Under the pieces are notes generated by a model, which saw only the letters and a list, made by a program, of their open reading frames with translations, did no database searches and had not been told where the DNA came from. A program made the position numbers and the translations under genes. 64,000 bases of DNA, taken from contig CM120646.1 of assembly GCA_051362555.1 (NCBI GenBank), positions 7,254,001-7,318,000 of the forward strand. The letters are read 5' to 3'. Of the stretch, positions 6,239 through 58,731 are shown piece by piece (the first letter of the stretch is position 1; each line of letters opens with the position of its first letter). This stretch comes from Lingula anatina (Eukaryota > Animalia > Brachiopoda).

Positions 6239-6279
<41 letters not shown>

Positions 6280-14458: not shown

Positions 14459-14466
14459 TATATATA
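14459..14466 (+). promoter_or_regulatory. TATA-like box of the 25-exon gene
   Basis: TATATATA lies ~30 bp upstream of an Inr-like ACAGTC and ~125 bp upstream of ATG 14586. Confidence 0.45.
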
Positions 14467-14585: not shown

Positions 14586-17500
14586 ATGAGGATCCTTGGA
14601 CTTTGCTGTGCTTTGTTGTTATTTGCCATGGCGGCAGCGAAGGTAAGATTTATTCTCATCTCTCTCTCTCTCTCTCTCTCGTTTTTAGAGATGATAAGTT
14701 CATGGTTTTCTCCATCATAATTTGTGTGTTAAAATAAATTTGTTTTTTTTTTATTTCAGCCGTACTCTCTTGGATGCGTAAGTATCTGACGTTTTAATTT
14801 TCTACTTTTATCGTGTATGTATTATGATTTTATTTTAAGCTTTTCTAAATAAATTACATACATGTCGAACGCGATTCCATTTGAGGACAATCCATCTTCA
14901 TCGCGACGCGTCCTTAGCTTCAGAAGCCTAGCAGCGGCTCACCAATGTACGTATTACGACCCTAATATTATCTTCATCGCTAGTTTCTAGAAACTTAACC
15001 GACACACTGACAAAAGAGGTGAGTTCTTCATTTACATTGAAACTCGAGGTGTTTCTCTCAGCGCTGGTGCATGTATCAGTGCGATGTCTCTGTTTTTAAA
15101 ACAGCCACAGTGTAAAAAGCCAGGTCAATTTTCTGGATAATAGGTGGCACTGAATTCCTAGTTTGCTAAGTGTGAGATGTGAGTTGTTATTTTTTGATAA
15201 ATAATTTAGATTATCAATAAATATTAAACGGTTACAGTATAGTGACCTCATCTATGATAAATTACGATCATGATATTACGTAACTGATGAGTTGAGGATT
15301 TTTTTTTAATTTAATGAAATTACGATCTATATGTTACGGTAACAAGTGAAATTCATGTTTGTCTCCATTACGAGCGTGACTGAAAAACTAAGTATTGAAC
15401 CTATCAAAAACACGTTTATGGATCGTAATCATGAGAACGCTTTTGGAGATGGTAGAGCTTGTATACGTTGGTGATAACGGGAAAAGTATCGAAATATCCA
15501 CGAAAATGAGACATTTGTTATATAGAGTTCATTTTATGCCTTTAACTTAATCTGCTCTCTCTGCAGGAACTGGCATGCCCTACCGGACAGAAGTGCGTCT
15601 TGCAAAAAGAAAAGTGTTACGCTCCGCACTGCCCTCTGGTGCCCACCTGCGTCGATGATCCTTGTCACGTAAGTGTACCCCATATGCTGGCTCTCGCGCT
15701 TGTAAGTTATGTACATTAATTAAACGTGTAATAAAAAATAAAAGAAACTTATCGCAAAAATCGAGAAAATGGAGCAGAATGTTTAATTATCGCGTGCGCA
15801 CACACCGGGTTTCAGTTTGAATACATTTTGACAAGAAGTAAAATGCATTTCTTTACTGGTATGGCCGTTTATAATTATTTGGAGCAGGCACATGCATTTG
15901 CAGTCAACAGTTAGGGTAACACGTAACATATAACACCAATTTAAAGAAGCCAAAAGATGCATATTTAATTAATATTCTACGGAGGTGCATATGTTTTCAT
16001 TTTAGGACTGCAACGGCGTTTGCGTATCTGACGACTATTGCGATATGCCGTGTGTCATAAACTGCACGTGTATCCCCCACTCAAACCAAAAAGCTGGATG
16101 TGAGGTGAGTGGCGACATCTTTAGTTTAGTCAGCGTGCCTATCAATAGATAAAACCAGAGTCCAATGATAAGCGGGTGGTTTATTCAACATCTTTACCCC
16201 GTTCGGTTACGAGCCTGTCATAGTTATTATATTATTATAGATCTTTCTGACATTTTTATCGTTTGAGTGATAATGATTTCTTTTTTTCCCTGGTTGGTCA
16301 AAACATTGGCGATGACGTCATTGGTCAATCTTTTGTTTGGAGATGTTTAATGTTATAATTTATCAGGCCTGAAATTCACAGATACTGTGTATATATGCTG
16401 AACAAATATATAAACGCACGAAACTAAAATGGTCAGTTGAAATGGACAATCATAAATTATGCTCAGGTTGATGGTTCTATTGTGAATTGATGGATTTGTT
16501 TTGATCAAGTATAGTGGTCTGGTTTCACTTGGTCGCTCCCCGTGAGTATGCTCAAAGGCTCAGCTATTCCACCCATAAGATTAATGGAGCATGACGGAGT
16601 GAAAGTCAATCTGTATGACCAATACACAGAAAAAGTGTGCATATTTGTCACTTGTCAACATGCCACAGATGTCCGAAATCATGAGGGAGCGTGCCATCGG
16701 CATGCTCAATACTGGCTTGTTGGTAACAGAAGTTGCAGCATGCCTGAATGTGCTTCATTCCACCGTCAGCCATCTGAGAACACACTTCAGAGACACTGGT
16801 AGCACTAGGAACCGCCCACATGCCCCCAAACCACGTGTTACCACACCCAATATGTCGACCATTGAACACCTGTTGGATGTTCTGGATCAACGTTTTCACC
16901 ATCATGTTCCAGCTCCAGGGAATGTTCAACTGCGGGTAGCACTTCAGAAGGAATGGGATAATATCCCTCAGGCCACTATTGACAACTTAGTGATGCCCAT
17001 GCGCTGCCAGTGTACTGCTCTGTGCGCAAGCTGATGGTGGCCATACTTGTTATTAGTGTCTGATGTGAACTCAGGATGTTGACCCCCATAGTGTAGTTGA
17101 TGCCCTAACTCATAATACAGTACAGGCAGATGGTCATCCTCGGCGTAATACAGAACATTTTAAACTGAAAATAAAACTGCGAATTTACATATACTTTTGC
17201 AGAAAACTTTAAACTGTGAAATGCTTCTTCTTTATATCTGCAGGCAATATTGTGTGCGCAGGGTAATGTTTGTATCGAGGATGAAAATGGTGTGGGCGAA
17301 TGCGTTGCAACTTGTCAGGTTTGTGTTGTCGTACCCTTCGATATGGGTCTCCAAAGTTTGTTTCAAAATTGAATTAACATACATTTGATCAATTTTGTAA
17401 CAAACTACACACACCCCTTTCGGAAGTTAGTGTTACTAGAGATAACCGTGAGGTAGATTTCTGATACATCTTGGCTATCTGGAATGTCAAGCTTATCCGT

Positions 17501-20500
17501 TTCTTAATCTATTAATTATTGACGTAAATTATTCATTGAGTGATATATATCTTAACGTGGAATTGCATTATCATATTTTAAAAAAATCTCAATTGCTTCA
17601 TTGAATAATTAATTAACTACAGTAGCAACATAGCTGTCATTTGACATTGTCGTAATTTAAAGTGATAATGTTTCCTTTTTTCTTGTTGGTGCCGTTGCTC
17701 AGTATTATATTTTTTCAGGCCTCAAATTCACAGATTCTGTATGAAATGTGCACAATGCATTATGGCAAATTCTGCAGCTTCTATGAAGACAATGCAATGA
17801 AAATAAAAATAACCTATTTAACAGTTGTACGCTATCACCATGAGCTACATGGGGTTGATATCTCAGTTTCTTAAATCTGCAGGTTATATTGTGTCCTGAG
17901 GGTGCTATGTGCGTAGAGGATGAACAAGGAGCAGGCGAATGCGTACCAACCTGTCAGGTTTGTATTTATTTACCTTCCGATAGATGTCTCTGCAGTCTGT
18001 AATAAAATTGGATAAAATGCTTTTAGTGTTACTAGAGATTGCCTTGAAGTAAATGTCTGATACGTCGCCTTGCATAATCATATTAGGATGTACATGTGCT
18101 GCCATATACAAGGGATACTCTTGTCTAGACCAATGTCTAAATTTTGTTAGTGAATTTTCACTTCCAGATGGTTGACTGCCTCCCTGGCTACAAATGCGTT
18201 GATACTGAATATGGTGCCAAGTGCGTGCAATATTCATGTATGGTATGTGTTGTAAAATTTGTTTTGAGGAATATTATATCCGTGGTAACTGACGTTATGA
18301 GTTACTTACATGTGAACACTTGATAAAAATGTCAACCATCAAAACATCAATTTGATATCTTAGTTTTTCAAAATATCTATACGGAGGGGGGGTGGGGGTG
18401 TTAACAATATTCCACATCAATCAAGTCGCGAAATTTAGGGATGGGAAAATACTTGGTTATGTCTCGTTTCGCTCTTTATGTATTTCCTTTTTTTTGGAGG
18501 GAGAGGGTTGAAAATAACGCAGGACCACCTTAATAGTGAAGGTAGGAGGGGGGGCTCGTCTTTTCCCCATTGACATGTAGAATTAATAATACTATTTCGT
18601 TAATTAGGTAACGGGTTGTCCGTATGGGGAGATGTGTGTACCATCCAACACGACTGGAGACAAATGTGTACCCACCTGCGAGGTATGTGAATATTTTATA
18701 CTCGGACATTTGTTTAATACCATTTATGAGAAATACTGATAGATCGAACGCGTTTGGAAAATACAAAAATAAAAAATAGATTTTAGGAGACTTTATATAG
18801 ATCGGATTTTTGCATTTATATATCTTTTGTTTATTGAAAATATTTAATTTTTAACTTCTTTGTAAATAAATAAATGGACGATACACGGCTCTACGGGGGA
18901 AGTAACCTTAAACTGCATTTTAAGCCACGTGTCTAAAACGTGTCTGACTATGGGATCGTTAAAATCTGCACATTTCGTCTTTTATTTGTTTCTTTAAGAA
19001 AAAGAATTGTACAGATTATCAGTACTGCAAAGATACTCCAATGGGAGGCGTGTGCAACGACATCATATCCTGTGACGTAAGTGGAGAAACTACTTTCTAC
19101 CAACCATGTTCTTCTCTAGAGTCATAGTGTAAAAACATTACCATAATATTATAGTGGTAAAAAGTGATTCATTTCTAAAGGATAATTGTGTGTTCCATAT
19201 GACGCCCCGACCCTTTATTTAAGGACCGTGATCAAATTTACATTGAACACAATTTACTTTTATATGCAAGAGACAAAGAAAAAATATTAAATTGCATTAC
19301 CTTATAGTTTACTAATGAGCAGAAAAAAATTACTAAAGCCCCAAGCCATCCCATATATCCTTGGCCAGCTTAAAGACACATGATTTTGTTGCTGAATATA
19401 TTTGTTTTGGATCTACATGGATTTTGTTGCTAAATATCTTTGTTTTGGATCTACGTGTATGTTTATCTTTGACCTCATTCATTATTTTCAAAGCTGCTTG
19501 TTGATCAGTTGTATAAAATTCACAACAAACTAACACTGAAAATGTATCTATCTATCTATCTTGCAATACTTTTGAAAGAACAATAAAATGTACAGAATAT
19601 ATGAAATACTCATATGATTGTCATACATGTTTCATTCGTTTTTCTATTTCGTACCTAATATTATAATTACCCTGAACATTACCCGCAATAACTTCTATCT
19701 CAAATTTTACTACTCAGTTCATTGACTGTCCATATGGAATGAAATGTGAAGAGGACGACTATGGGCAAGGAGAATGCGTACCAACCTGCAAGGTAAGAAA
19801 ATATATTACTTTATCTTAGCATTTATTTGAATTTTTGCCATGTACGAAGAACGACTTCAACTGATTTTGTGACAGCTGCAGGCTTTATAAACGGCTTAGG
19901 CGTTTCTAACTACCCGCAGATCTTTTAGCACTAACACCCATATTAACGTACCACATAACCCACGAATAAAGAACACACCGTAAAAGTATTCAATACTAAG
20001 AAAGCGATTCCTAGCACATTCTGCTATGGTAGTGCTAAATACGTTTATGGTGTGTTAGTTAATTCGTGGGTTATGAGGGTTAATATGGGTGTTAGTGCTA
20101 AAAGATCTGGAGATAGTGTTAGTAAACGCCTAATCCGGTGATAAGACCTGAACAAAAGCACCCTGGTAGAGAGTAGCTAGTTAGATGCCTTTACTGTCAC
20201 TGGGCACACTATGACAACACTACAATACAGGCATATTCACAGCTTATCATGCCATCACAGAGAGGCCAACTCGTAAAACAAGTTTAATGGTCACACTTGT
20301 GGTGGATAAGGTTCAAAGTTGTCCCGTGTATTAGATGCTTAGTATTTAAATTTTAATGACATAATTTAATTTTTATGTTAGCAGCCCTAATGGATTATTT
20401 ACTCAGATAATACAAAAGATAAATGAAGTACGGTATATATCATGCAACTTCCAGTATAACATATAAACACCAAACACCAAAAAAGGCACTAAAATGACGA

Positions 20501-23500
20501 TTAAAAAGTCAAGAAAAGCTGGTATCGTTCCCTTATGTTATCAGTGATAGTATTCACATACTTTATAACATGCCCTTTTAATGCCCTTTTAATGACCTTA
20601 CCCTTCATATTTTCTGGAACTTTCATTTTTATATAGAGAATTCTATTTTGTTTATTAGATAACTGGTTGTCCATATGGAGAGAAATGTGTCTCTGTGAAC
20701 ATGGAACACGTATGCATACCTACGTGTGAGGTACGTACATTTTATCTTATTATATATATATAATAAGATATTTGTCAAAAGTAAGAACCGTCTGACCAAA
20801 AATATCAATCAATACACTAAGCATGTTTGGAGGAAAATTCAAGAAAGGAAATTGAAGGTCTTTTTTGAAAATGATAGCACCTCTTCATGCAGTTATGCAG
20901 TATGTACGCCCTATTCATGCTGCACAAATAAATGTCAATAGATTCTGGTGTGTTTTCTGTCAGAACAATCTAACAAGTACTGTGGAATACGCAAATCTTA
21001 CCATGAAACCAGGGAAAAACTTGATTGTTGATATAGGAATCGATTTCTCCACAGATAGCCAATTGCACCGAGTACCAGGAATGCAATGACACCGATTACG
21101 GTCCCCAGTGCTACGATGTCGATCCTTGTGACGTAAGTAAAGAAAAAATTTGCAAGGATTTTTGCTAATGCAATATATACATGTATTACACGCCCAGTAT
21201 TCTATAGTTACTAGAGTCAACTAATGGATAACCTGAATGAATGTTATGCCTTAGTACATTTTACATTTTTCTACCAGAGCCACAAAGAAAATTTTGCAAC
21301 CAATGTTCACAGTTATGTATCTGGCTGTGTGCACATTTCTATATACCGAGAACTTCTGACCAAAGTTGACGTTAACACTCAACTGGCGTCTTGTAAAAAG
21401 CACTTTTGACTAAACATAAGTACCGTATCTTAATTTGGCCATGTTTCCCTTGTCTTGTTGTCTCAAGAAAAAAATACCAACAAGCAGTTAAAATATTTAT
21501 CAATTATGTTACCAGTCGATTGCATTACTGCAAAATTACAAAACAAGTTTAACATCCAATTATCAGCATCAAACAAAAAAATAAAAATAACCTTTCGTCG
21601 ATGCAAAAATTGTGATGTTCACTTTAACACGGTGATGGGCATTTCCACCAAAGTGGCAGTCTCTACACTAATGTATATACAGTAAAATAACAAGAAATAC
21701 CAAATGATTTGAACAACGCTTGTTTCATTATAACATGGTCGGCAAATAAAATAAGTTTAATTGTTTCCAGAAAATTATGTGCGAGAAGCACTACAGGTGT
21801 GTACCGAATGAATACGGTCCACCAATGTGCATACCTACCTGTAAGGTAAGTAGTAAATCTCTCTCTCTCTCTGAACCGTGCCTTACGGGTTCTTTGGACA
21901 GGGGCTGTTGTGACGAAATTTGTATTTTGCACCAGCTTTCTTCAACTTTGGCATTCATGACAAATCTCTACCTGGTCAAATCAGCAATGTTCCATGCCTC
22001 TTGTTTTGGGTTTAGTATGCGTAGTAGATGTTGGGAACTTACACTGTTTTAGCCAGTGGTTGATGACAACATGGTCATCATTTTCATTTGGGCCATGCAG
22101 TTTGTTGATAACCAGCGTTGCCCTCCATTTAAGTCGTGCACATATTCATTATTACATTCATTTTGCAACAACAGTGAAGACTATATGCCTTAATTATACT
22201 AAAATATTGTAACTCCTTTAAAAAATACGAAGATATCAATCATCCAGCTAAATTCTTAAGTGAATATACAAGCTTTATGATAGGGACCTAGTTGTCTTAT
22301 ATACATGTAGTTTTAAATGTTGAAGTACTTACATTTTACTGTCGATTATTCCTCCAGTTGATAGAATGCCCGCCTAATTATAAATGCAAAGAAGATGACT
22401 ATAGTTACAAGTGTGAGCCCACATGTAACGTAAGTAGTTTAGATATGTATTTCTGATTTGACTGTCATAAGGGACGTTATGTTAACTAAAATTACGAGTC
22501 GACTATACATAATTTCACGATGGTACTTTTCAAAATTATAAAAAGAGCTTATATGCCCAAAGGCAATTTCCACGCATTTTAGTAATGTAATCTACCTTTT
22601 CAATTGTTTTACATTTTGTATGATCGGTATGATTTCATTTTATTTTCAAGTTGACTGGCTGTCCCTTCGGAGAAGTGTGTGCACCTACGGGTCATTGTGT
22701 GCCTACCTGCGCGGTTTGTATACGCTTCCATCTTTAAAAAAATTTGCCCAATCCAATGCAAGTTCTCTATCGAGTCGACTGTACATAATTTCACGACGGC
22801 ATTTTTCAAAGTTAAAAAAAAAACATTTAAAAAACAGTGAAAGCACTTCAAAATATTAATGTCTTTTCAGTAAACCTGTCAAATTTTAAGTAGTGGGTGA
22901 CGAGCGGCAACCTATGTAAACTGGGTCGGTAGACGAATTTATCAAATTTATCAGATCCACAGTGTAAGCGATCTTTTATTCAAATATAAGAGCAATAACG
23001 TTTTTCAATTGGCCAATTGCAATTTTGCAACACTCTAAGCCAATGCTGTTTTTTTTTTTTTTTTTTCATTCGAATAAAGATTCAAAATCAGGGTCCGTCG
23101 CTCTCATTTTCCATTTTATCAATTTGGTCTATCATGAAGTGGTTTTATTCATTTCGATTTTTAAATCTCATTTTAGAACACAAATTGCAGCAATTCACAG
23201 GTTTGCATCGATACCCCAAATGGAGGCATGTGCGAGGACCCCACCTCTTGTGACGTGAGTGGACAAACAATTCAATCCCTTGACAAGTATTATTAAAAAT
23301 TAGTCTCGTTCTTATCAGTGGTATAATACAATTCACATTTCGGGCATTTAAAAGCTTTAACATTGAAAATAATCCACATATATAAGATATTAGAACCTGC
23401 CTTAACTTCTAAGGTTTTTTTTAAATCTCAAACGTGCGATTTAGCCCTGTCGCCATTTGCTTATTCGTGTAATCATCCTTTTGGACATACAGTGCAACAA

Positions 23501-23802
23501 GCTGTAGGTGCTGCAGTGTGTGTATCCAGGTACGCGCACTAGACCTTTGACTTCATTTCAATGTACATAAACGGTTCTATCTACAGCAAATCACATGTCC
23601 ATATGGAGAGAAATGTGTGCTGCAAAAGATGATGTGTAATGTCCCCTACTGTCCCATCGTTCCCACGTGCGTTGAGGACCCCTGCGCCGTAAGTGTACTG
23701 GGAATGCTGTTACATGATGCTTAAATGTAAATTAATATTGTGAAAGAAAAATCCAAATGTATCATTATTTACTTGCACATCTGAACCTCTGTGATGGATG
23801 GA

Positions 23803-23849
<47 letters not shown>

Positions 23850-26800
23850 TCCAAAATTTTGAAAGCCTTAGAGGTTCACGGAAACACAATGTTGAGATTT
23901 GAACTACCTTTTGACCATAAGGTGTTCCAGCATTGAGAGTGTTATTTTTCCAACGTTTTGGGGCAGGGTATATTACGTTGATAAAGTTAAAATTATTCTA
24001 TTAATAAGATGTTTATTTAAGGGTCTAATATTCACTGTGCACCTTTAATTTTGGGCCTTTACATTCATGTGTTTCTACAGAAAACGTTAAATTTGTCAAG
24101 GTTAGTTTATCTTCAAGATAAAAGTTCCAGGAGATTTCTTTGTTTTAACTTCAGGGCTGCAAAAGTCACTGCACATCAGCTGACTATTGTGAATCCCCGT
24201 GTAATCTTAAGTGTATGTGTGATACACCAACTCAAACTTGCGAGGTAAGTGGACACGGTATGAAAGATCCCGTGCAGCAATATACAGCTTATCTGCATGG
24301 AACGATTCTTGGTCAAGTATTTGACGTGCTTTCTTCATTTAATAAACTAAATAAATTTGAACTTAACTAATGAATTTCTATTTAAATTGCATACTAATTA
24401 GTGTTTTCTATGAGCCTAAAGCACTTCCTGGCATATTGGTATTTCTTACAAACATTCTTAAATTTATGTTCACAATTATGACTTAGAATACTTTCTATCC
24501 AATAATTTCATAGATAAGCTCTACTTGGATATATAAATACTGGTTATGTATAGGTACGGCTTATGATTATTTGTACTTCAGGATATCGAGTGTATGCCTG
24601 GCTTCCAATGTGTTGATGGTGCAGATGGGGCAAAATGTGTCAAAATAACATGTGACGTATGTAATGCAATAACGATATACATTTCCTACAACGTGTTATT
24701 TGTCGATGGAACCGCATGTTGTTTACTCTTCGAATTTTTTACCTTTAGGAAATATTACTGGAAGTTAGTGAACATGTATATGTAGATAAAAGTAATAATC
24801 GAATTCATACACATTCATCGTGTACTTCATGTCGCTGCTTTCAGACGCATAGACATTGTGAATTTTGTTATATTATCTTTCAAGATGATTGACTGTTTGG
24901 ACGGTTATGAATGCGTTGAGCATGAAGACGGCGTCAAATGCGAAGAAATTAAAGAAATAACATGTGCGGTAAGTGTTTTTTTTTTTTAAGAAATGTGGTA
25001 TGATTGCAAAAGAGATATGTATATGTGTATGTACATATGTCATGGTAGAAGCTGTCATCTATGAAGACCGTCGAGTATGCAAATGAAACGCAGGCTGGAG
25101 TTTCTGTGGGTTTGGTTCTGCGATTCTTTTGGTATAAAGTGACAAATAACCGTTCCACACAGGGGGTCTGGAAATTCCCTTTAATCCTGCGATAAACGTC
25201 GATATTTGGATGGATATTTGGATAGATGTATAGCTATTTGGATGTTTGGATAGTTGGATATTTTAATTGCTAGATGCTGAATATTTTTACTTTTGTTCCA
25301 TGTAAACCATTCTATGTACATTTCTTCTTCTTCTGTGACATTGTCTATGTAGAACACATGGGAACATACCCTCCCTTAGCCTTTGCCTCTTCTCCCTCAT
25401 ATAACGATGAAACGAGCGCGGATTTTTTTAAGTTTCACAATACTGGTGAATCCAGGGTTTTGCTAAGGGCACAATGATAAAATAATTGAAAAGTGGAGCA
25501 AGAGAAATATTTTACAGTGCAATGGGTCAATTTTACTGTTATATGTATGGCGACATTTGCTTAGGGATAGACTAGGCTTGGCTTGAGTTTTCTTGTGTGG
25601 TTGCTTTTCTTGTTTTCAAACCTTGCCTATACTTTCACTTTTATATTGTTCCATTTGTTTATATCAGATGATGCCGTGCATGGACGGTTACAGATGCTTG
25701 GATACCCAGTATGGCAGCATATGTGTCGAAATGACTTGTGAGGTAAAGGCCGTAGTAAATTACATTTCATGTAATATGTGTTTGAAAACATAACTATGAT
25801 GTTAGTTACACTGTAGTAAAATACACATCATGTAATATGTTCTTTTAAACATGTTTGTGATGAAAGTTACACTGAAGTCATTATCATAGTTTTAAATTTC
25901 CAGTTCGTTAAAAAAAGTAAATAATATTTTTAAAATTCTGAAAGAGAACGTCAATCAGTCAAGTTACTTAAAAGCAAACCGAAAAATCCTCTCTTAAATA
26001 GATAAACGGCAAGATATTTTATGAGCTGGTAGTTGCAGAGAAAGAAGGTGTCTGGAAGATCATAGCACTCACTTTTTCATCAATGTAATGCTGTGAGATT
26101 GCCATAACAGATATAAGACACACTTACCTGGCCTCTCAAACGATTCTTAACTTATTCAGGACGTCCAGTGCCCTAATGGCATGAAGTGTGTTGCAAATGG
26201 GAAACCTAAATGTGTATCGACCTGCATGGTACGTATGCCTAATATGATATACTGAGTATGTGCCATTTACTTTAGACATTACGCATTTCCCCCATGCAAG
26301 CCAAATGATCTGTCAAAAAATATAATGAAATCGGTAGACTGACGCATTTCGCTGTTTTTACGTTCAGATTAGACCACAGAATGCATACAGGCGTATACCC
26401 TAAACCAACATATATTCATTTAATGAACCTGTGACAGAATAGCCAATTTGAAATGTATGGTTAATGTATTTGCTGGATTATTATTATTATTATTATTATT
26501 ATTAGACTATGCAATGTAACGGTACTCATATGTGTAACGACACTGACCATGGAGCCGTCTGCGTGGTTCCCCCATCTTGTGACGTAAGTGGAAACAATTT
26601 TTTTCACCAGTAATGATATTCAGAAACTTTGGTTTTGTCTGTTTTAGTTCATTCTAGTGGCATGATATAGTTCAACGCATTACTTGTTTGAAACGTTCTT
26701 CTCGGTAATTAATTACAGGGGACTGAGGACATTTGAAGATAAATTGATAAAAATGGTCAAAGGGATCATGCCCCTTCTGGGTCCCTTACGGGCAGTGTAC

Positions 26801-27691
26801 TGTCCTATGGCTTTTTCTCGTATTTAAAAAAAAACATCCGTATATTTTAGTATGAATCTGGCTTCATTTGAAATTGTTTGGTATACTTTTATTGACGACT
26901 AACGACTCGATCTAAGCTATGGCCGCTTTCGTTATAAAGAATAGTGTGTCAGACATAATTTGAATAATTTACCTCGATAGAATGTGACGTGCCCAAAAGG
27001 ACAAAAATGTGTTCAAGAAAAGGGTATGTGCGACTACTCGGGCAACTGTCCTCCAACACCACCAGAATGCGTTCCCAGTAGGTGTTCTTAGTTTTGCTTT
27101 ATTTCTCATTACATGTAGTTCTTCGGATGTTATTTGTTGATTATTATAGAAAATAGAATGTAAAAATATACGATAGTAATTCAACTAATGAAGTAAATAA
27201 GTTGTATATAAACAGTAGTGACAAAATAATTTGTTGATTTTTGGTTCATTTCATATTCTATCTCAGCAGCTAGTATTCAAATTGCCACTCATCGGTGATA
27301 TGACTATCTTCAAAATGCACTTGACTCTCTTCTTGCTAATTTGACTGAAGTCGGTATGTTCGGGTTTGGCTCCCGATTACAAACATCTTATCACTTATAT
27401 CCCTTTGAAATGACCCTACTGATGTATCATAAAGATATTATATGTTATATTTGCTAAGAAAACCCCACGTTTGACAGATATGGCTCTAATAACAGTACTT
27501 TATTTCAAGTCCCGAAAGAGAAACCCTGCAAGCGTCCTAACGGTGGAGGTGACGACGCCCTTCAAATGAACGGGAAGGACGTGTGCTGTGGCCTGTGCGC
27601 ACACAGACAAGAGTGTCCTCCGACCCATTACTGCGCCCTTCACATGACTGAAAATTACGCCGTGTGTTGCCCAAAGTACTACTATTGGTAA
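14586..27691 (+). CDS. Secreted cysteine-rich repeat protein (~672 aa, 25 exons): signal peptide, 22 FOLN-like/Cys-rich modules, C-terminal Lustrin-type domain
   Basis: All exons are AG/GT bounded and join in frame: 14586-14642 (MRILGLCCALLLFAMAAAK), 14760-14777 (PYSLGC), 15567-15668, 16006-16104, 17244-17318, 17883-17957, 18168-18242, 18608-18682, 18999-19076, 19718-19792, 20659-20730, 21055-21132, 21771-21845, 22358-22429, 22651-22713, 23177-23254, 23587-23688, 24155-24244, 24582-24656, 24885-24968, 25668-25742, 26160-26228, 26506-26583, 26981-27077, 27510-27691. A typical exon is VILCPEGAMCVEDEQGAGECVPTCQ. The last exon reads ...DVCCGLCAHRQECPPTHYCALHMTENYAVCCPKYYYW*. AATAAA occurs at 27834 and 28071. 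Confidence 0.9.
16392..17060 (+). mobile_element. Internally deleted Tc1-like transposon relic in intron 4
   Basis: ORF 16615-17034 joins the paired-like HTH (RERAIGML...FRDTGSTRNRP...PRVTTP) directly to the C-terminus (IEHLLDVL...LQKEWDNIPQATIDNLV), so the DDE core is missing. Confidence 0.85.
19879..20150. mobile_element. Palindromic MITE
   Basis: caggctttataaacggcttaggcgtt...agatcttttagcactaacacccatattaac is mirrored by gttaatatgggtgttagtgctaaaagatct...aacgcctaatccggtgataagacctg. Confidence 0.8.
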
Positions 27692-28169
27692 CGCTTCCTT
27701 TCAGTCGGTTAAGATATCTTGTGTCAATTTGTCAAGGTGCCTGGCTAACAAGCACAGTGACCATATATTTAAATATATTGTGCTTACAACTTAGCTATGG
27801 TCATTTTAAGTGAGTCTAGCAATCTATTTGCAGAATAAATTTGCATGCACTTGATTATTGAAGTCCATTGCATTTTTACTCTGATTTTATGGACATTTGA
27901 TGCCTTCTAATTTCTGTTATAAGTTTGTTTTGTGGGGGTTATGGTTGAATGTGAATAGGATTGCAAATTTAAAGACGAGCATTGTTATACCGGAAACGTA
28001 TTTGGTTATATGCCAGTAAATCACTTCTTGTGTACTTCGACAAGACGTAGTGTATTGTATTGCATAAAAGAATAAAGCATGTTTCAAAAGTTGCCCCTTT
28101 GTGCGATACTATGCTACTTCAGAGATGAATTAAACATTAACTTGAGTATTTTAGTCTGGTAAAAAGCAT

Positions 28170-30448: not shown

Positions 30449-30707
30449 ATGATGACAACGTTGATACCATGCTTTGTATTGCTGAATATCAATTTGGCTT
30501 ATGGACTGGTAAGTTGTTAAAGACGGATCATGTGTGACCGCTGACAAAAAGCCCTTGTAATGTTGGTCGTTGTAATACCATATGTATTTGTTCTGCAGTG
30601 TACAAGATGACGATATATGAAACCATATTTTTGATAAGACACTATATATCCTTTTTATTTGTAACGGAACTACACGTATGAACTACTTTTTTATCTCTCT
30701 CTCTCTA

Positions 30708-30755
<48 letters not shown>

Positions 30756-33700
30756 TTGTCTATGTGTACCAACCGAGGACATCAGCACAACACCATACAA
30801 CCGAGGACATCTTATTCCTTGGTTAAATCAAAATAAAAACATTCAATTTAGGGTAAAATCTATTCGAGTATGAATGTTATAAATTAATTTTTTATAAAAA
30901 CTAATTTTTTGCTGACAAGAATTTTACATTCTAACCGAGGACACACACGGACACACACACGGACAGACACTACACATTACAACCGAGGACATGCATGCAT
31001 CTACATGTAATAATGATTGTACTTTTAATGCAAAGCAAATTTTATATAGCGTTTCTTTGCAGCAATTCACATTTTTATGAAATTCTTTCATATTTAAGGT
31101 AAATTCCAAAATAACACCAGAGGTGATGATTAAATGAACAGTTATACAATATTTAATGCTGGGCTTTGCCACTTTTTTAGAATTGAAGATTATGAGATAA
31201 AACATCAATTAATTTAGGAAAAGAAAGGATACTGATGAAATAAAATAAAAGACCAAAGAAATTCGTTTTCAAACATTTTATTTTCATAATGCTTATTTTC
31301 TATTTAGCACTCTTTTATTATCATGAATTTTGTATTTTGATAACACAAAGTGTCGTCCATTGGATACAGACTTGAACAGTACACAATTTTACAATTGAGG
31401 ACATCATGCCAGCAGCACCCAAAATTGTGCTTTCTTCCAATTTGATGCAATATTATATAATGCTTAACAGCATAATGATCATCAATTTTTTATAATAAAA
31501 TATTAGTATCATGAATATTCAGAAAATGTGACTAGCAAAGGTTTTCAGGTTCATGGAACTCCAAAGTCATACTTTGAAAATGCTAAATGTATACAAGAGA
31601 GCACTGTACTGAAATGGGTTTCTTTCCATTTTTAACTTTTTTACATAAAATAATACAGTTTACTGCCATTTCACATGATCAACTAAGAAAATTGTTGAGA
31701 TGGCAAAAATATCAATATAACAAGTTTAAATGTCCAATTTCCTCCATTCCGAACATTGTGAATGATTGAATCTGACAAACTACAATGATACGAGTTCATT
31801 TCCATTTTGGCACTTTTTTTACACAATACAAGATAACAGGTTTACCACCATTTTTATATAATCAACTAGCAATATTGTCAAGACGCAGAAATTGTCAAAC
31901 AACCCATTTTACATATCTAGTAAATTCAATAATGAGACTGTTTACATGCCTGACAATCAAATCTGAGGAAAACCACTTATATACAAATAAAAGCTGAAGT
32001 CCCTCAAAACTCAACCAATCAATCTTATTTTTAAATTTGATTTGTAAATAGATAACATTGATCACTCTTGTGAGTTTAATGACAACAGGCCTATCGGTTC
32101 TCCCTGAAATGTGCTTACAGTGTTACTAATATGCTTTTACTAATAATCATCAGTTCTGTGAGTTTCATGAAAACAGGCTTTAAGTTATTGGTTCTCCCTG
32201 AAATGTGCTTACAGTGTTACATATATGCTGAAAAAAAAAAAAAAAAAAAAAAAAAACATTTGAAAGAAAAGGGCCTGGTCTTGCTGATTTTCAATCTTGA
32301 CCATTCTTTTACTAATAATCATCAGTTCTGTGAGTTTCATGAAAACAGGCTTATTGGTTCTCCTTGAAATATGTTAACAGTGTTGCATGTACACTGAAAA
32401 AAGGAGAAAAAATGCAAAACTTTTGAAAATAATCACCCCATTTCCTCCATTTTGAGACACTGTATTACACAGTACATGATAACATGTTTACCGTCATATT
32501 TATATAATCAACTAGCAATGTTGTAAAGATGCAGACAATTTCAGAGAAACACTAACATATTTACATATCTAGTTAATTCAATAACGAAACTGTCAACATG
32601 CCTGACAATCAAATCTGAGGAAAACCACTTATATACAAATAAAAGCTGAAGTCCCTCAGAACTCAACCAATCTATCTTATTTTTAAATTTGATTTGTATA
32701 TAGATAACATTGATCACTCTTGTGAGTTTAATGACAACAGGCCTATCGGTTCTCCCTGAAATGTGCTTACAGTGTTACTTATATGCTGAAAAAAAACAGC
32801 ATAAAATTTGAAAGAAAAGGGCCTGGTCATGCTGATTTTCAATCTTGACCATTCTTTTACTCATAATAATCAGTTCTTTGAGTTTCATGAAAACAGGCTT
32901 TAAGTTATTGGTTCTCCCTGAAATGTGCTTACAGTGTTACATATATGCTGAAAAAAAAACAGCATAACATTTGAAAGAAAAGGGCCTGGTCATGCTGATT
33001 TTCAATCTTGATCATTCTTTTTAATTTACTAATAATCATCAGTTCTCCGAGTTTCATGAAAACAGGCCTATTGGTTCTCCTTGAAGTGTGTTTACAGTGT
33101 TGCATGTACACTGAAAAAAGGAGAAAAAAAATGCAAAATTTTTGAAAATAATCACCCCATTTCCTCCATTTTGAGACACTGTATTACACAGTACATGATA
33201 ACATGTTTACCGTCATATTTATTTAATCAACTAGCAATGTTGTAAAGATGCAGAAAATTTCAGACAAACACTAACATATTTACATATCTAGTTAGTTCAA
33301 TAACGAAACTGTCAACATGCCTGACAATCAAATCTGAGGAAAACCACTTATATACAAATAAAAGCTGAAGTCCCTCAAAACTCAACCAATCAATCTTATT
33401 TTTAAACTTGATTTGTATATAGATAACATTGATTACTCCTGTGAGTTTCATGAAAACAGGCTTATTGGTTCTCCCTGAAATATGCTTACAGTGTTACTTA
33501 TATGCTGAAAAAAAAAAAAAAAAACAGCATAACATTAGAAAGAAAAGGGCCTGGTCATGCTGATTTTCAATCTTGACCATTCTTTTACTTATAATCATCA
33601 GTTCTGTGAGTTTTATGAAAAGCCTACTCTGAAGTACCGAATAAAAGTACTGATGGAATAAAAGTACTGGGTGGAAAAAATCTCAAAATTTAATAAAAGT

Positions 33701-34384
33701 ACTGATGGAATAAAAGTACTGGGTGGAAAAAATCTAGAAATTTAATAAAAGTACTGGATGGAATAAAAGTACTGGGTGGAAAAAACCTTTACACCGCTCC
33801 CCCCCCCCAAAAAAAAAAAAAAATGAAATAAATAAATAAAAAGTAAAGAAGAAGAAGAGAAAGAAACAAGGCAGCAAAGCTGTCAAATGTACAGACAAAA
33901 ACCAGAAAATAAAAACGCAGGAAATAGGATACTGTCAATTCTGATGAACTTATGTATTATGCTAACTGTAAATGCATAGCCAAAATCAAATTCTTATTCT
34001 GCATAACATTGGATTAGGATGAAAGTAAAATGTGTATCAAGCATTAGACTAAGTTCCCATACCTAGATCAATCTAACAGGATCAATCCAACTCCAAGGGG
34101 TTTCTCACTAAATTGCTTTCAGTTTGAGAGTCTTAGGATTCTGGCATGCCAGTTTCAGTAGGCGTGACGGACAACTAAGCCACTTACATTGATTGCAATT
34201 TAGCGAGAATTCCCATGGAGATAGATCGATCCACAGTTAGCGTGATAGGGTCTGGAAATAGTCCCTAAGGTGTCAGGCTGATAAGAGTTAAACTTTGGAA
34301 ATGCCAGAATGAGGTACAGTGAAAATTAAACACAAAAAAAAAATTGCTTAAACTCATAAAAAAAAAAATATATATATATATATA

Positions 34385-34421
<37 letters not shown>

Positions 34422-37400
34422 TTTTTTTTTTTTTTTGCTGTATGTCAATCCTAAGAATCATTCTTGTAACTTAACAAAATACAGAAAATGTTACAAAGTA
34501 AGAGTACAGGGCTCCTGGCAGATGGGAGTGATAAGTCACGACTTGAAAATGCCAGTATAGCACTCTATAAACCTGCATTGCCTCCAAAACAGAAAACAAT
34601 CACACTGGTTTTCAAACACAAGCTGCACTTCTGTCTTATGAAACTTTTCAGTAAGTTTCAGTATCGTAAGTAACATGGTTTTCCCTTAACCGCTATCCTG
34701 GCAGCAGTGTCCAAAAAAGGGTTTTCTTCAACTTTCATGCAATAAACCATAATACTTAACAGCATAATGACCATCAAATTTTTTATAAAAAAATAAAATT
34801 ATCATGAATATTCAGAAAATGTGATTTGGGAAGGTCTTCAAGGCCATGGAAGTTCAGAGTCACACTTTCAAAATGCCAAAATGTAAACAAGAGATAACTG
34901 TACTGAAATGATTTTCTTTCCATTTTCAACACCTTTTTTAAAACAAAATGATCAATAAACTGTCATTTTTAAATGTTCAACTAGGAAAATTGTTGACATA
35001 GGAAAACTATCAATAGAACAATTTTCAATGTCCAATTTGCTCCATTTGCAGATGCTGAACATAGTGAATGATTAAATCTGACAAACTGCAATGATGAGTT
35101 CCTTTCCATTTATGATACTTTATTACACAATGCACAATATTATAACAGGTTTACCGTCATTTTTATATAATCAACAATATTGTTAAGAAGCAGAAAATGT
35201 CAAAACAACACTTTTACATATCTTATTAGTTCCATAATGAGACTGTTAACATGTCTAAGAATTAAATCTGAAGAAATAACAATTATATACAAAAATACAG
35301 AAAATGCACAGCACTTCTGGTGGATGGGAGTAAAAAATCACATCTTGAAGATGCTAGTGTTTGAAAAATTAATTAAAAAAAAAATTAAAAAAAAAAACGT
35401 AAAAAATTCCAATAAAGCTGCTATTCAAACTTTTAATCTAGCTGTATTAACTTGATATTAATAACCCCACCAAGTTTGAGAAAAATAAAGCACTGTTATT
35501 CATCTATAGCATGTTGGCATAACACATTCTTTTTGTTGTAAATTTATTTGCAATGTTTAACACCATTTATCTGCACAATTATCACCAAATCCTAATTTTG
35601 TGACACAGTTAAGAGAGCTAAACCTATGGGACTTTACAGGGAAATCTCAAGGAGTGTTTTATGTAATCTCATTTAATGGCCAATTGAAAATTAATGAGTA
35701 GGCAAGTGACTTTATAGACCTTAATTTAATTAGTGATCACCCAAGGGACAATTTTATAGACTGCCATCCATACAGTACCATCATATAGCACAAAGGTGTT
35801 GCATACATGCTGAAAAAAGTGAAAAACAGCATTACTTCCCTAAAAATGACCCAATCACGCTGATTTTCAAAATTGACCTGCGTATTATGAATATTCATCA
35901 GTTCTGTAAGTTTGAAACCAAAAGGTAAAATGGTTTTCCACTTATCGTGTTATCGGTGCTGCATATATGCTGAAAAAAGTGAAAAAACAGCATAAATTCT
36001 CTATAAGTGACCCGATCATGCTGATTTTCGAACTTGACCTGCGTATTACGAATATTCATCAGTTCTGTAAGTTTCAAGCCAAAAGAAAAAACAGTTTTCC
36101 ACTTATCGTGTTATCGGTAAAAGTGCACGGCGACGGCGACGACGGCGACAGCGACGGCGACGACAGACGCAGATGACGGCTATATGTACAGACACATCTG
36201 TGTCTGTACATAAAAAGCTAGCTATTGATCATTGTAGAAAAAAAAAAAATTCACCAGGTAAAATTCACTCAGTATTAAAATTTATCTTAAAAACGGGATG
36301 AGTTAAATTTCATAATTGTCAGGGGCCGAAGACCCAGATATATCGCACCTAAGCCGCCTCCGAGAGCCATACGGTTCATTCAGTAAATTTATTCTCAGAT
36401 ATAAGGTTCGTTTTGCATACCTGTAAACTCCTAAGGGTTTATCTTACATAGAAATGTGATTTAACATCGTTTAAATCATAAATCGGCATGAAATAATTGA
36501 CGTTTGAAAACAGACACAACTTCTTTGCTGCACTTGAAATGACCTCCTTAGCTATAAATATGATCCTATCACCTTGCGACATTGCATCATTCGATCGATA
36601 TACATGAGTAGTTGTCACTGCTGAAGGGAAAGCACGTCTATTTATAGAAACTGAAATCAGGTGACGCATGTACTGTTGTGTTCAGAGAGCGACTTCCGCT
36701 TGACCTACTTTCCAGTGCTGTTTGTGGAACAGTACAGTAATGAGTTGAGATCTCGATTTTCTTCTCATTATACTTCAATTTAAGAAAATAAAAAGCGTGA
36801 CTTGTACTTGTGTAATTTCCCACCGGTACAATAGGTATTTAATAAACATACCGGGTGGAAGATTTTTGAAAAATTAATAAGCGTAGGCTACTGGGTGAAA
36901 ATGGAGCGTACCGGCGGGAAGAAATTTGGAAAATTAATTAACGTACCGGTACGTTTATTTGATACTTCAGAGTAGGAGAGCTTAATTTGATAAAAAAAGA
37001 CCTTTAGTTTAAAAATATGAACTTACTGAATATATAGACATCTGAGATATAACATTAGTTTCAGTTTAGTCTGCCCTTTACAGCACAACCGAGGACGCGG
37101 AATTTGGTCCGCCCTTTACAGCACAACCGAGGACGCGTGTGTATAGCCCGATTTCAGACAAAAAGTTGGACAGTATTTCTAATACACTCGTGGCGGGAAT
37201 TTGGCCCGCGCTATACAGCATAACCGAGGACTGGCTCAGAATAGCGTCAAATTTCACCACCTAACTTGAAATGGGCCCCTTTATGCATTCCACTGCTTAT
37301 GTCAACCGAGGACGTCCTCGGTTGGAGGTGTGTCCTCGGTTAGTGGGTTTCGGGCGGGTGTGTGTCCTCGGTTAGAATGCGTGCACAAGAGCACACACAC

Positions 37401-40400: not shown

Positions 40401-41399
40401 TATAATAGCACTGCTGAACAGTGTCAAAAGTTTATCTACGGAGGCTGTGGAGGAAACGCCAATAATTTCGAAACACTGGAGGAATGCCAAAAGACTTGTC
40501 CCGTTACGTGTGATGTGAGTCGGTTTTTATTTATTTATTTATTTATTTAATTATTTATTTATTTATTCAATCGTTTATTCTTTACATATATTTCTTTGGT
40601 TTTGTGGAGGGGATGTGGAGGAAATATTTTTTCCTGTTGGAGAATCTTATACAGGCATGCCCAATGTATGTCGAAATACTTCTAGTTTATTAAATATTTT
40701 CCTTTTACCTGGTTCGATCCATTTCCTTAGTCACCTTAATATAAAACCATTACCATATTGAAGAAAATAATATCTCCATTTTTTAGAACTTAGAATGTTC
40801 TCCAGGAGAGAAGTGCGTTCAGGAAACAATTTACTGTTTTGCATACCCCTGCCCCCAGCCACCTGCCAAATGTGGTAAGTTATATTCTCCCCCTTTTCAA
40901 GACGGCGATGGTAGATGTCTCGGCTGAATATCTTTAGTGTTTGCAATTTTATTTAATCTGCATCTTCATATTCAAGGACCGTTGCTAGTATAGTAATTAA
41001 TCGCACATTCCCATGTTTTCAAATTTCGAATTAAAATAATACGTACAATGAATGAAATACAATTCTCGTATCATTGGTGTATAGTTTTTTTGGCTATGTG
41101 TGATATCGTTTGTTTTCACCAACCTATCTTTTATCATCTTAGCGTGTGCATATTGCAACATTGCAACTTGCCAAGGACACTTCATTCAACAAAATAACAT
41201 TATTTTGTATTTCTGTTAAGTCAAACCAGAGAAGCCTTGTCTCAGAAGTGACGGGAGGTACGACGATCCTCTACTAGATAGTAATGGTGATCCGATCTGC
41301 TGTGGTATGTGCCTGAACAAACAGGAGTGCCCGAAGGGTTACTACTGCGACATTCACCCTGCTGATGCTTGGGCTGTGTGCTGTCCGAATGAAGTCTAA
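30449..41399 (+). CDS. Paralog A: secreted FOLN-like/Kunitz/FOLN-like/Kunitz/FOLN-like/Lustrin protein (291 aa, 8 exons)
   Basis: Exons 30449-30508 ([20 protein letters not shown]), 37583-37600 (ASVVDC), 38057-38150 ([31 protein letters not shown]), 38667-38839 (Kunitz 1, [10 protein letters not shown]), 39379-39469, 40342-40514 (Kunitz 2, [10 protein letters not shown]), 40787-40874, 41221-41399 (Lustrin-type, ends WAVCCPNEV*). Intron phases 0,0,1,0,1,0,1 are all compatible. Confidence 0.9.
31460..33620 (+). repeat. Tandem-repeat-bearing element (about 660-720 bp higher-order unit)
   Basis: aatcaactagcaat...acatgcctgacaatcaaatctgaggaaaaccac occurs at ~31860, ~32505 and ~33225. Its 5' part is homologous to 34750-35290. 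Confidence 0.8.
34044..34252. mobile_element. MITE family member, with relatives at ~45780-46240 and ~53812-54035
   Basis: Shared inverted motifs gatcgatctatctcc...ctcgctaaattgc / gcaatttagcgagaattcccatggagatagatcgatc. Confidence 0.6.
34745..36216 (+). mobile_element. Helentron/HINE-like non-autonomous element
   Basis: Two ~160 bp core repeats (35801, 35961), a GGCGAC/GAC microsatellite (36128-36180), a perfect 14-bp hairpin tatgtacagacaca-tc-tgtgtctgtacata (36183-36212), then an A run. Confidence 0.6.
40142..40215 (+). pseudogene. Truncated duplicate of the Kunitz 2 exon (pseudo-exon) in paralog A
   Basis: An intact acceptor ttctatcttag is followed by [23 protein letters not shown], then the sequence breaks off 200 bp upstream of the complete exon. 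Confidence 0.8.
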
Positions 41400-44776: not shown

Positions 44777-44843
<67 letters not shown>

Positions 44844-50800: not shown

Positions 50801-51012
50801 AGCAAAATAACATTATATTGTATTTCTGTTAAGTCAAACCAGAGAAGCCTTGTCTCAGAAGTGACGGGAGGTACGACAATCCTCTGCTTGACAGTAATGG
50901 TGATCCGATCTGCTGTGGTATGTGCCTGAACAAACAGGAGTGCCCGAAGGGTTACTACTGCGACATTCACCCTGCTGATGCTTGGGCTGTGTGCTGTCCG
51001 AATGAAGTCTAA
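43724..51012 (+). CDS. Paralog B: secreted FOLN-like/Kunitz x2/Lustrin protein (291 aa, 8 exons)
   Basis: Exons 43724-43783, 44142-44159 (ARVGDC), 46471-46564, 47002-47174 (Kunitz, [10 protein letters not shown]), 47664-47754, 49952-50124 (Kunitz, [10 protein letters not shown]), 50385-50472, 50834-51012. Exon lengths are identical to A and splice sites are intact. Confidence 0.9.
44835..45740 (+). repeat. Local intronic duplication (~540 bp offset) in paralog B intron 2
   Basis: ttgaaaacttgt...caagattgaaatactcccactataattccccc...gtaccacaa occurs at ~44841 and ~45383. Confidence 0.75.
45807..46020. mobile_element. Small TIR element nested in another MITE
   Basis: Termini aagcctagatac / gtaatctaggctt. 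Confidence 0.55.
48029..49616 (+). mobile_element. Degenerate Tc1-like transposon in paralog B intron 5
   Basis: TA|cagacgtgacatttaatatggaatattt ... aaatattccatattaaatgacaagtctg|TA, with relic motifs RPLRKPLL and [12 protein letters not shown]. The site is empty in paralog C (~58826). A right-end fragment recurs at ~61436-61578. Confidence 0.8.

Positions 51013-53107: not shown

Positions 53108-53138
<31 letters not shown>

Positions 53139-58700: not shown

Positions 58701-58731
<31 letters not shown>

What the first reader, a model, noticed from the sequence alone, without database searches (positions are those of the whole stretch)
14586..27691. Hidden 25-exon secreted gene built from 22 consecutive symmetric mini-exons: a candidate combinatorial splicing cassette system
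Seen: exons 2-23 (18-102 nt) are all multiples of 3 and phase 0 at both ends. Seventeen of them encode a diverged 4-Cys unit of 21-28 aa, with Cys fixed and the loops highly variable. Known: the C-x4-C-x5-C-x(5-9)-C spacing resembles the follistatin N-terminal (FOLN) module, and runs of symmetric small exons generate isoform diversity in schistosome micro-exon genes. Inference: any subset of exons can be skipped in frame, giving a variable-length disulfide-bead protein for extracellular matrix, shell, adhesive or recognition functions. I do not recognise this architecture as a named family.
Basis: partly seen in the sequence, partly recalled or inferred. Interest (0 to 1): 0.85.

Follow-up and report, generated by a model that had tools for sequence, protein, structure and literature searches.

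The report
Brachiopod-type disulfide bead-chain protein gene
This is a real, spliced 25-exon gene, likely from a brachiopod or close relative, predicted to make a secreted chain of about 20 small disulfide-stapled modules like those of the bird eggshell-membrane fibre protein; its frame-preserving exons were seen joined only in order, so they likely reflect repeated exon duplication rather than mix-and-match splicing, though occasional skipping is not excluded.

Summary
The gene model holds: 25 exons, 672 aa, 110 Cys, exons 2-23 all phase 0/0. RNA reads show 17 of 24 predicted junctions, all between neighbouring exons; no skipping joint was listed. At this depth ~30% skipping per exon is excluded, ~10% is not. 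The Cx4Cx5Cx8C module does not match the exon: an intron sits just after its first Cys in 20 of 20 modules, so skipping would give hybrid modules. The same phase-0 intron lies in neighbouring Kunitz-bearing paralogs whose exons are asymmetric, so the symmetry is best explained by tandem duplication of one exon. A Lingula anatina RefSeq protein has the same layout, plus Kunitz and TIL domains. The module spacing is that of avian eggshell-membrane CREMP (PMC12723725), a structural bead-chain protein. Most likely a secreted structural matrix or coat protein; the Lingula homolog is absent from a published shell proteome list. New member of a known kind; the combinatorial cassette is not shown.

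The parts
14459..14466 (+). TATA-like element 127 nt upstream of the ATG (candidate only)
   Evidence: sequence, motif scan
14586..14642 (+). E1, signal-peptide-like 19 aa (judged by eye; no predictor run)
   Evidence: reads in X8 cover it; 9 of 16 non-Cys positions identical to the Lingula homolog
14760..14777 (+). E2, 18-nt micro-exon giving the first Cys of module 1
   Evidence: equivalent 18-nt exons in paralogs; no junction read shown
15567..15668 (+). E3, six-Cys variant module (extra Cys pair in the hairpin loop)
   Evidence: E3-E4 joint 18 reads
16006..16104 (+). E4, second module type; with the last Cys of E3 it has 7 Cys, one more than the Lingula equivalent
   Evidence: E4-E5 joint 13 reads
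16390..17110 (.). Tc1/mariner-like remnant in intron 4; source of most laid reads, which come from other copies
   Evidence: (loose ends, 84-95% alike), translation
17244..17318 (+). E5, 4-Cys unit
   Evidence: joints E4-5, E5-6
17883..17957 (+). E6, 4-Cys unit; closest pair with E5 (73% DNA)
   Evidence: joint E6-7 13 reads
18168..18242 (+). E7, 4-Cys unit
   Evidence: joints E6-7, E7-8
18608..18682 (+). E8, 4-Cys unit (subtype shared with E11, E15, E22)
   Evidence: joint E7-8 (table 5c)
18999..19076 (+). E9, 4-Cys unit (subtype shared with E12, E16, E23)
   Evidence: joint E9-10
19718..19792 (+). E10, 4-Cys unit
   Evidence: joint E10-11 18 reads
20659..20730 (+). E11, 4-Cys unit; all 16 covering reads carry an in-frame 12-nt deletion in its loop
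21055..21132 (+). E12, 4-Cys unit
   Evidence: joints E11-12, E12-13
21771..21845 (+). E13, 4-Cys unit
   Evidence: joints E12-13, E13-14
22358..22429 (+). E14, 4-Cys unit
   Evidence: joints E13-14, E14-15
22651..22713 (+). E15, shortest 4-Cys unit (21 aa)
   Evidence: joints E14-15, E15-16
23177..23254 (+). E16, 4-Cys unit
   Evidence: joint E15-16; weak EGF-type Pfam hit E=0.009
23587..23688 (+). E17, six-Cys variant, duplicate of E3
   Evidence: joint E17-18 16 reads
24155..24244 (+). E18, second 7-Cys module, duplicate of E4
   Evidence: joint E18-19 13 reads
24582..24656 (+). E19, 4-Cys unit
   Evidence: joint E18-19
24885..24968 (+). E20, longest 4-Cys unit (28 aa)
   Evidence: no junction read shown
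25668..25742 (+). E21, 4-Cys unit
   Evidence: joint E21-22 23 reads
26160..26228 (+). E22, 4-Cys unit
   Evidence: joint E21-22
26506..26583 (+). E23, 4-Cys unit
   Evidence: joint E23-24 8 reads
26981..27077 (+). E24, third six-Cys variant; phase 0 in, phase 1 out; ends on the module's last Cys
   Evidence: joint E24-25 16 reads
27510..27691 (+). E25, 8-Cys Lustrin-cysteine-like C-terminal domain and stop
   Evidence: PF14625 E=0.0026, 18.5 bits, under the 27-bit cut-off; 23 of 49 non-Cys positions identical to the Lingula homolog
27834..28076 (+). candidate polyadenylation signals (AATAAA at 27834 and 28071)
   Evidence: reads reach this 3' region
30449..41399 (+). Paralog B, predicted 8 exons, 291 aa: signal, micro-exon, module, Kunitz, module, Kunitz, module, Lustrin domain
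   Evidence: Lustrin exon passes the Pfam cut-off; no RNA laid
43724..51012 (+). Paralog C, tandem duplicate of B, intact 291 aa
   Evidence: Kunitz exon E=2.4e-21; no RNA laid
52866..60305 (+). Paralog D, likely pseudogene (truncated second Kunitz exon, lost Cys residues, weak first donor)

Best explanation
The locus is a spliced gene, expressed in some samples only, that is predicted to encode a secreted, acidic chain of 20 small two-disulfide hairpin modules of the CREMP/follistatin-N type capped by a Lustrin-like domain, and it likely serves as an extended structural or scaffolding component of a secreted matrix or coat, with its exons likely joined mainly in series. Shown: exon structure, in-order splicing, module spacing, homology to a Lingula protein. 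Inferred: the family has a phase-0 intron one residue after the first Cys of each module; repeated tandem duplication of the piece between two such introns (E5/E6 pair, triplets E7-9, E10-12, E14-16, E21-23, block E3-4 = E17-18) built the array and made every copy symmetric. Each module would fold with C1-C3 and C2-C4 bonds across an exon junction, like beads on a string. Relative to the Lingula homolog and the neighbouring paralogs, this gene lacks Kunitz and TIL inhibitor domains, has twice as many modules, is strongly acidic, and has two modules with an odd Cys that could link chains to each other or to other matrix proteins.
For: Model and register. 17 of 24 junctions seen, all adjacent; joints in X7, X8, X9 only, none in X1, X2, X4, X6. 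Splice sites no weaker than those of the paralogs' asymmetric exons (donor match 7.0 vs 6.6 of 9, p=0.12; pyrimidine tract 0.68 vs 0.67). Same intron in paralogs B and C, whose exons are 0-1 and 1-0, and signs of it in Lingula: one RefSeq model reads through right after Cys+1 and isoform X3 lacks exactly two such units, 49 aa. Eight short homologs inspected all start their arrays at C1, so the fold unit is C1-C4, not the exon. 17 of 17 plain modules are Cx4Cx5C and 10 of 17 are exactly Cx4Cx5Cx8C, the CREMP spacing, solved as C1-C3/C2-C4 hairpins on flexible linkers (PMC12723725). AlphaFold models of two homologs show one beta-hairpin per module; Foldseek ranks follistatin first for the Lingula model (E=6e-5) and CREMP 9PGB fifth for the short homolog (E=0.014). 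Duplication pattern from DNA identity. pI 4.4, 16.5% Cys, 4.9% Tyr, net charge -51. Only two dibasic sites, so not a peptide polyprotein.
Against: No tissue, localisation or biochemical data: the structural role is by analogy. The joined protein itself was not folded or scanned against Pfam; only single exons and homologs were. Disulfide pairing was not read from the models; TM-scores were low (0.1-0.3) and VIA Z at most 3.3. Depth is only 8-23 reads per junction and 13 joint rows were hidden. The reads are mostly 84-97% alike, so they come from divergent individuals, a sister lineage or a close paralog. Lingula isoform X3 shows an in-frame two-unit loss. The family's other members carry Kunitz and TIL domains, which points to defence or protease control as an alternative.
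Confidence: 0.62

Rival explanations
1. Combinatorial splicing cassette: exons are skipped in varying sets, giving length variants and, because the intron lies inside the module, new hybrid modules.
For: Frame and Cys register survive the loss of any 4- or 6-Cys exon. Lingula RefSeq isoform X3 lacks two whole units. About 10% skipping per exon is not excluded (P 0.70-0.85 of seeing none) and would make most transcripts shorter than full length. Seven junctions were not seen and 13 rows were hidden.
Against: 0 skipping joints against 44 reads on 9 adjacent joints (untruncated) and 191 reads on 14 adjacent joints; 30% skipping has P=0.02 or less. Splice sites are ordinary. X3 falls in a near-identical duplicate pair (22 of 24 residues the same), where an automatic model can be a mapping artefact (inference). 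Symmetry follows from tandem duplication.
Confidence: 0.15
2. Soluble defence or protease-control protein: a multivalent binder or inhibitor from a Kunitz/TIL/Lustrin cluster, with variable hairpin loops as binding surfaces.
For: It sits among five Kunitz-bearing genes or remnants; the Lingula homolog has Kunitz and TIL domains; two profile hits join these modules to WAP, one of them also to Kunitz. The best PDB sequence match of the exon profile is the injury-induced sea-star peptide KASH2, same C1-C3/C2-C4 hairpin (E=0.58, not significant; PMC11891777). 10 of 15 read substitutions checked change an amino acid, none a Cys.
Against: Gene A has no Kunitz, TIL, WAP or Kazal domain; no basic P1-like motif recurs in the loops (sequence); KASH2 is a single processed peptide, while gene A lacks regular dibasic sites. 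The substitution sample is small and was picked by read support.
Confidence: 0.17
3. Shell-matrix protein that binds mineral through its acidic modules.
For: pI 4.4; Lustrin-like cap; likely brachiopod host; Kunitz and TIL proteins occur in Lingula shell lists.
Against: None of the 5 Lingula homolog accessions occurs in the supplement of the Lingula shell proteome of PMC13425148, control accession 13 times; the Lingula homolog is basic (net +14); PMC4595640 reports no secreted acidic proteins among 65 Lingula shell proteins.
Confidence: 0.06

Closest known systems
Lingula anatina RefSeq XP_013401613.1-615.1 (auto-named 'keratin-associated protein 10-7' / 'notch homolog 3'; uncharacterised)
   Same: Signal peptide, six-Cys first module, E4-type module, array of Cx4Cx5Cx8-9C modules in matching order over E5-E9, Lustrin-like C-terminal domain; 33% identity over 690 columns; same intron register
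   Different: About 10 plain modules instead of 17; has Kunitz and TIL domains; basic rather than acidic; its E4-type module has 6 Cys, gene A's two copies have 7
[quoted passage not shown]
   Same: [quoted passage not shown]
   Different: 81 near-identical modules, 3059 aa, linkers 5-17 aa, VWD and C8 domains at the end; gene A has 20 diverged modules, linkers 3-7 aa, a Lustrin-like end; no significant sequence match found
Dictyostelid spore-coat/prespore follistatin-like repeat proteins (e.g. Heterostelium XP_020436831.1; Dp87-named Atlas cluster)
   Same: Arrays of the same module; XP_020436831.1 is among the 36 profile hits with 13 stretches; Atlas top hit cluster is 61% FOLN, score 0.82, a lead only
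   Different: No Lustrin domain, different lineage; likeness may be convergent
Follistatin/SPARC N-terminal module (Pfam FOLN PF09289)
   Same: Cys spacing; short helix plus beta-hairpin in models; follistatin is the top Foldseek hit
   Different: No Kazal domain follows; Pfam FOLN not hit by the exons or the Lingula homolog
Schistosome micro-exon genes, MEG (PMC10526429, passages)
   Same: Secreted product, run of exons in multiples of 3
   Different: MEG exons mostly 15 bp, many isoforms, often disordered; here median 75 nt, each exon a duplicated fold unit, only in-order joints seen
Sea-star KASH2, disulfide-directed beta-hairpin (PDB 8V2M/8V2U; PMC11891777, part 1 of 5 and passages)
   Same: Four Cys, C1-C3/C2-C4 hairpin; weak profile match E=0.58
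   Different: Single processed peptide after an acidic pro-region, not an array

Membership tests
CREMP | Tandem modules with Cx4Cx5Cx8C spacing | tested here: met
   17 of 17 plain modules Cx4Cx5C; third spacer 8 in 10, 9 in 5, 7 in 1, 5 in 1
CREMP | C1-C3/C2-C4 disulfides over a beta-hairpin | tested here: inconclusive
   One hairpin per module in models of two homologs; 9PGB rank 5, E=0.014, TM 0.22; bonds not read; gene A itself not folded
CREMP | Very long module run plus C-terminal VWD and C8 domains | tested here: not met
   20 modules, 672 aa, ends in a Lustrin-like domain
CREMP | Component of egg-membrane fibres | not testable with these tools
   Runs carry no tissue label; no proteomics
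FOLN / follistatin module (PF09289 plus Kazal) | Reaches the Pfam FOLN cut-off | tested here: inconclusive
   Single exons lack C1 and give no hit; Lingula homolog gives no FOLN hit at E<=1, only CFAI_FIMAC_N E=0.009-0.02; 2 of 35 profile hits give sub-cut-off FOLN; joined protein not scanned
FOLN / follistatin module (PF09289 plus Kazal) | FOLN followed by a Kazal domain (recalled definition) | tested here: not met
   Modules follow each other after 3-7 residues; no Kazal hit
Schistosome MEG | Exon lengths in multiples of 3 | tested here: met
   22 of 22 internal exons E2-E23
Schistosome MEG | Very short exons, mostly 15 bp (6-81) | tested here: not met
   1 of 22 is 36 nt or less; 17 of 22 are 81 or less; median 75 (PMC10526429)
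Schistosome MEG | Many isoforms by exon skipping | tested here: inconclusive
   No skipping joint listed; heavy skipping excluded, about 10% per exon not
Lustrin_cystein (PF14625) | Reaches the Pfam cut-off of 27 bits | tested here: not met
   E25 18.5 bits, E=0.0026; the paralog's equivalent exon passes at 28.5 bits, so E25 is a diverged relative
Lingula XP_013401613-type module/Kunitz/TIL/Lustrin proteins | Matching N-terminal modules, array and Lustrin-like end | tested here: met
   BLASTP E=2e-61 with composition adjustment; non-Cys identity E1 9/16, E3 11/27, E25 23/49; E8 and E9 best match Lingula units 3 and 4 in order
Lingula XP_013401613-type module/Kunitz/TIL/Lustrin proteins | Kunitz and TIL inhibitor domains | tested here: not met
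   Absent from gene A; Kunitz present in neighbouring paralogs B and C

The most novel reading that the evidence does not exclude
Because the intron lies inside each disulfide module, low-level or tissue-specific skipping of these symmetric exons would not just shorten the chain but rebuild modules, joining the first Cys and helix of one to the variable hairpin of another, giving a splicing-tuned library of bead-chain proteins of different length and surface in a brachiopod matrix or recognition system, cross-linked through two newly gained odd cysteines.
Probability: 0.15. Interest if true: 0.6.

Novelty: new member of a known kind. Interest (0 to 1): 0.3.

Why it matters
It extends CREMP/spore-coat-type bead-chain proteins to a likely brachiopod gene cluster and shows how one arises: an intron inside a disulfide module is duplicated into a symmetric array while Kunitz and TIL domains are dropped. 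It gives a meaning to Lingula proteins now misnamed 'keratin-associated' or 'notch', and a candidate for an uncharacterised secreted matrix of brachiopods. It is also a clear case in which exon symmetry is not evidence of alternative splicing. If regulated skipping were found, it would be an unusual way to recombine disulfide modules.

Tried and rejected
No whole genome was held, so copy number and synteny beyond the window are untested. No indexed RNA holder was listed; nine same-label raw-read runs were offered, 7 laid (X3, X5 not), 6-30% of each read; X1, X2, X4, X6 gave only repeat-derived reads. E25 alone found no longer homolog. The Lingula array as query found only itself and one unnamed protein among 318 candidates. 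PDB sequence searches gave nothing significant. VIA-align gave Z of 3.3 or less for both models, which shows nothing either way. Atlas hits were all under 0.9, leads only. A scan of gene A introns for further frame-preserving exons gave 4 weak candidates without the motif, rejected; a 20-nt AG..GT segment at 24081-24100 is out of frame, rejected (sequence). Peptide-polyprotein reading rejected: two dibasic sites only. Paper searches for a description of this brachiopod family and for CREMP exon structure or a general paper on symmetric tandem exons (0 papers) found none in the library; subscription papers and bioRxiv supplements were not searchable. Earlier-findings look-ups by place, sequence and the first word set were blank. 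No complex prediction was run; the report claims no binding.
Full report
Observation. I rebuilt the gene from the sequence. Twenty-five exons from 14586 to 27691 (+) join into a 2019-nt frame of 672 aa with one terminal stop and 110 Cys. All introns are GT..AG. E2-E23 are 18-102 nt and phase 0 at both ends; E24|E25 is phase 1. Seventeen exons carry four Cys in 21-28 aa. A mechanical exon-plus-motif scan finds exactly these 17 on the + strand, none on the - strand and 1 in 10 simulated windows.

Expression and splicing. No indexed RNA run held the stretch, but nine same-label raw-read runs were offered and seven were laid, 6-30% of each. X1, X2, X4 and X6 gave only repeat-derived reads; X7, X8 and X9 (one study) gave spliced reads. 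In one search the joint table was not truncated: 9 exon joints, 44 reads, all between neighbouring exons, plus 4 rows inside the transposon remnant of intron 4. In one search, 14 of the 15 rows shown are neighbouring-exon joints (191 reads; X7 reads overlap those), 13 rows were hidden, and table 5c adds E5-6, E7-8 and E9-10. In all 17 of 24 junctions were seen, with the predicted intron lengths; E1-2, E2-3, E8-9, E16-17, E19-20, E20-21 and E22-23 were not. No skipping joint was listed. A Poisson estimate puts the chance of seeing none at 0.02 or less for 30% skipping per exon, 0.07-0.30 for 20% and 0.70-0.85 for 10%; 10% per exon would still leave only 11% of transcripts full length, so a weak form of the cassette idea stays open. 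The reads are mostly 84-97% alike to the window and all 16 reads over E11 carry an in-frame 12-nt deletion, so they come from divergent individuals, a sister lineage or a close paralog. Of 15 read substitutions checked, 10 change a residue and none a Cys (15 of several hundred listed or hidden).

The exon is not the module. Each exon reads x3-C-x5-C-x(5-9)-C-x(3-7)-C-x. The C-x4-C-x5-C-xn-C motif therefore starts in the previous exon in 20 of 20 cases: 17 plain modules and three six-Cys variants (E3, E17, E24). The lone Cys of E2 opens the chain and E24 closes on a fourth Cys. Eight short homologs inspected (8 of the 36 profile hits) all start their arrays at C1, which fixes the fold unit as C1-C4. 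E3/E4 and E17/E18 add a second module type with seven Cys; the Lingula equivalent has six, so two Cys are left over and could cross-link chains (inference).

Why the exons are symmetric. Downstream lie two intact 291-aa paralogs and a broken third: signal exon, 18-nt micro-exon ending in Cys, module (0-1), Kunitz (1-0), module, Kunitz, module, Lustrin domain. They have the same phase-0 intron one residue after C1, but their exons are asymmetric and cannot be skipped singly. Gene A's splice sites are no weaker than theirs. DNA identity shows duplication in steps: E5/E6 73%, E9/E12/E16 about 67%, E8/E11 67%, E3/E17 63%, E4/E18 60%. Tandem copies of the piece between two phase-0 introns must be symmetric, so symmetry follows from how the array grew (established reasoning on exon duplication, recalled; the paper search for it was blank).

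Relatives. A profile of the exons found one protein among 797 candidates, Lingula anatina XP_013401614.1 (E=3e-19), and 36 among 1.84 billion representatives, with the Lingula protein second. It matches gene A from the signal peptide to the last domain (33% over 690 columns; E=2e-61 with composition adjustment) and in module order for E8 and E9, but has fewer modules, Kunitz and TIL domains and a basic charge. Its isoform X3 lacks exactly two units (49 aa) from a near-identical pair, and a second model reads through right after Cys+1: the intron position looks conserved, and X3 is the one hint of skipping, from an automatic model. The window is thus likely brachiopod or close (inference). Other hits are arrays of the same module in a dictyostelid 'follistatin-like' protein and in unnamed records, two with WAP or Kunitz domains.

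Fold and function. Models of the Lingula fragment (pLDDT 60; 60-89 over most of the array) and of a three-module homolog (pLDDT 86) show one beta-hairpin per module. Foldseek lists follistatin, EGF arrays and CREMP, with low TM-scores; VIA-align was uninformative. PMC12723725 (parts 1-3 of 6 read) describes avian CREMP as 81 tandem Cx4Cx5Cx8C modules, C1-C3/C2-C4, independently folded on flexible linkers, first recognised by likeness to Dictyostelium spore-coat proteins, and compares it with octovafibrin, DUMPY and Chironomus Sp185 (these known to me only through that paper). Gene A has the exact spacing in 10 of 17 plain modules. It works like CREMP most likely, but is not a member: no VWD/C8 end, far fewer modules, no sequence match. 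A shell role is not supported: none of five Lingula accessions occurs in the supplement of PMC13425148 (passages and supplement searches), and PMC4595640 (passages and supplement search) found no secreted acidic shell proteins. A defence role remains possible given the Kunitz cluster and the weak match to sea-star KASH2 (PMC11891777, part 1 of 5 and passages). The MEG comparison fails on exon size (PMC10526429, passages).

Verdict. Observation confirmed; interpretation partly supported. Best reading (0.62): a secreted, mainly constitutively spliced CREMP-like bead-chain protein built by tandem exon duplication, likely structural. Regulated combinatorial skipping 0.15, soluble defence protein 0.17, shell-mineral protein 0.06. 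No description of this brachiopod family was found in the searches; bioRxiv supplements and subscription papers were not seen. New member of a known kind; interest 0.3.

Noticed in passing
window 5956-6559 (+): Two-exon gene for a small secreted single-Kunitz protein (80 aa; Pfam E=4e-16; intact); Leu at the position that usually sets specificity (recalled).
   Followed up: partly
window 30449-60305 (+): Three tandem copies of a module/Kunitz/Lustrin gene (B, C intact; D broken). Their Kunitz domains have Asp or Glu at the usual P1 position, unusual for trypsin-type inhibitors (P1 meaning recalled).
   Followed up: partly
window 40142-40218 (+): Truncated duplicate of the start of paralog B's second Kunitz exon, 200 nt upstream of the real one.
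   Followed up: no
window 63265-64000 (-): 3' end of another family member on the opposite strand: six-Cys module exon cut by the window end and a terminal Kunitz exon with Lys at P1.
   Followed up: partly
window 61700-63050 (+) and 54700-55500 (+): Tc1/mariner-like transposase remnants; the 62-kb copy is one frame with a few stops.
   Followed up: no
window 1090-4950: Nested direct and inverted repeat array of about 300-1000-nt units, with a 15-nt doubled core; 31-516 is repeated at 11182-11649.
   Followed up: no
window 19909-20126: Short inverted-repeat element in intron 10, present in many other transcripts (loose ends).
   Followed up: no
P0024, P0025: Unnamed proteins that join the same module to WAP (and Kunitz) domains: the module recurs as a spacer beside protease-inhibitor domains.
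   Followed up: no
P0010-P0013, P0016, P0017, P0028, P0030: Short secreted-looking proteins from unnamed metagenome records made of the same modules; some look prokaryotic, which suggests a much wider spread of the module than Pfam FOLN covers.
   Followed up: partly
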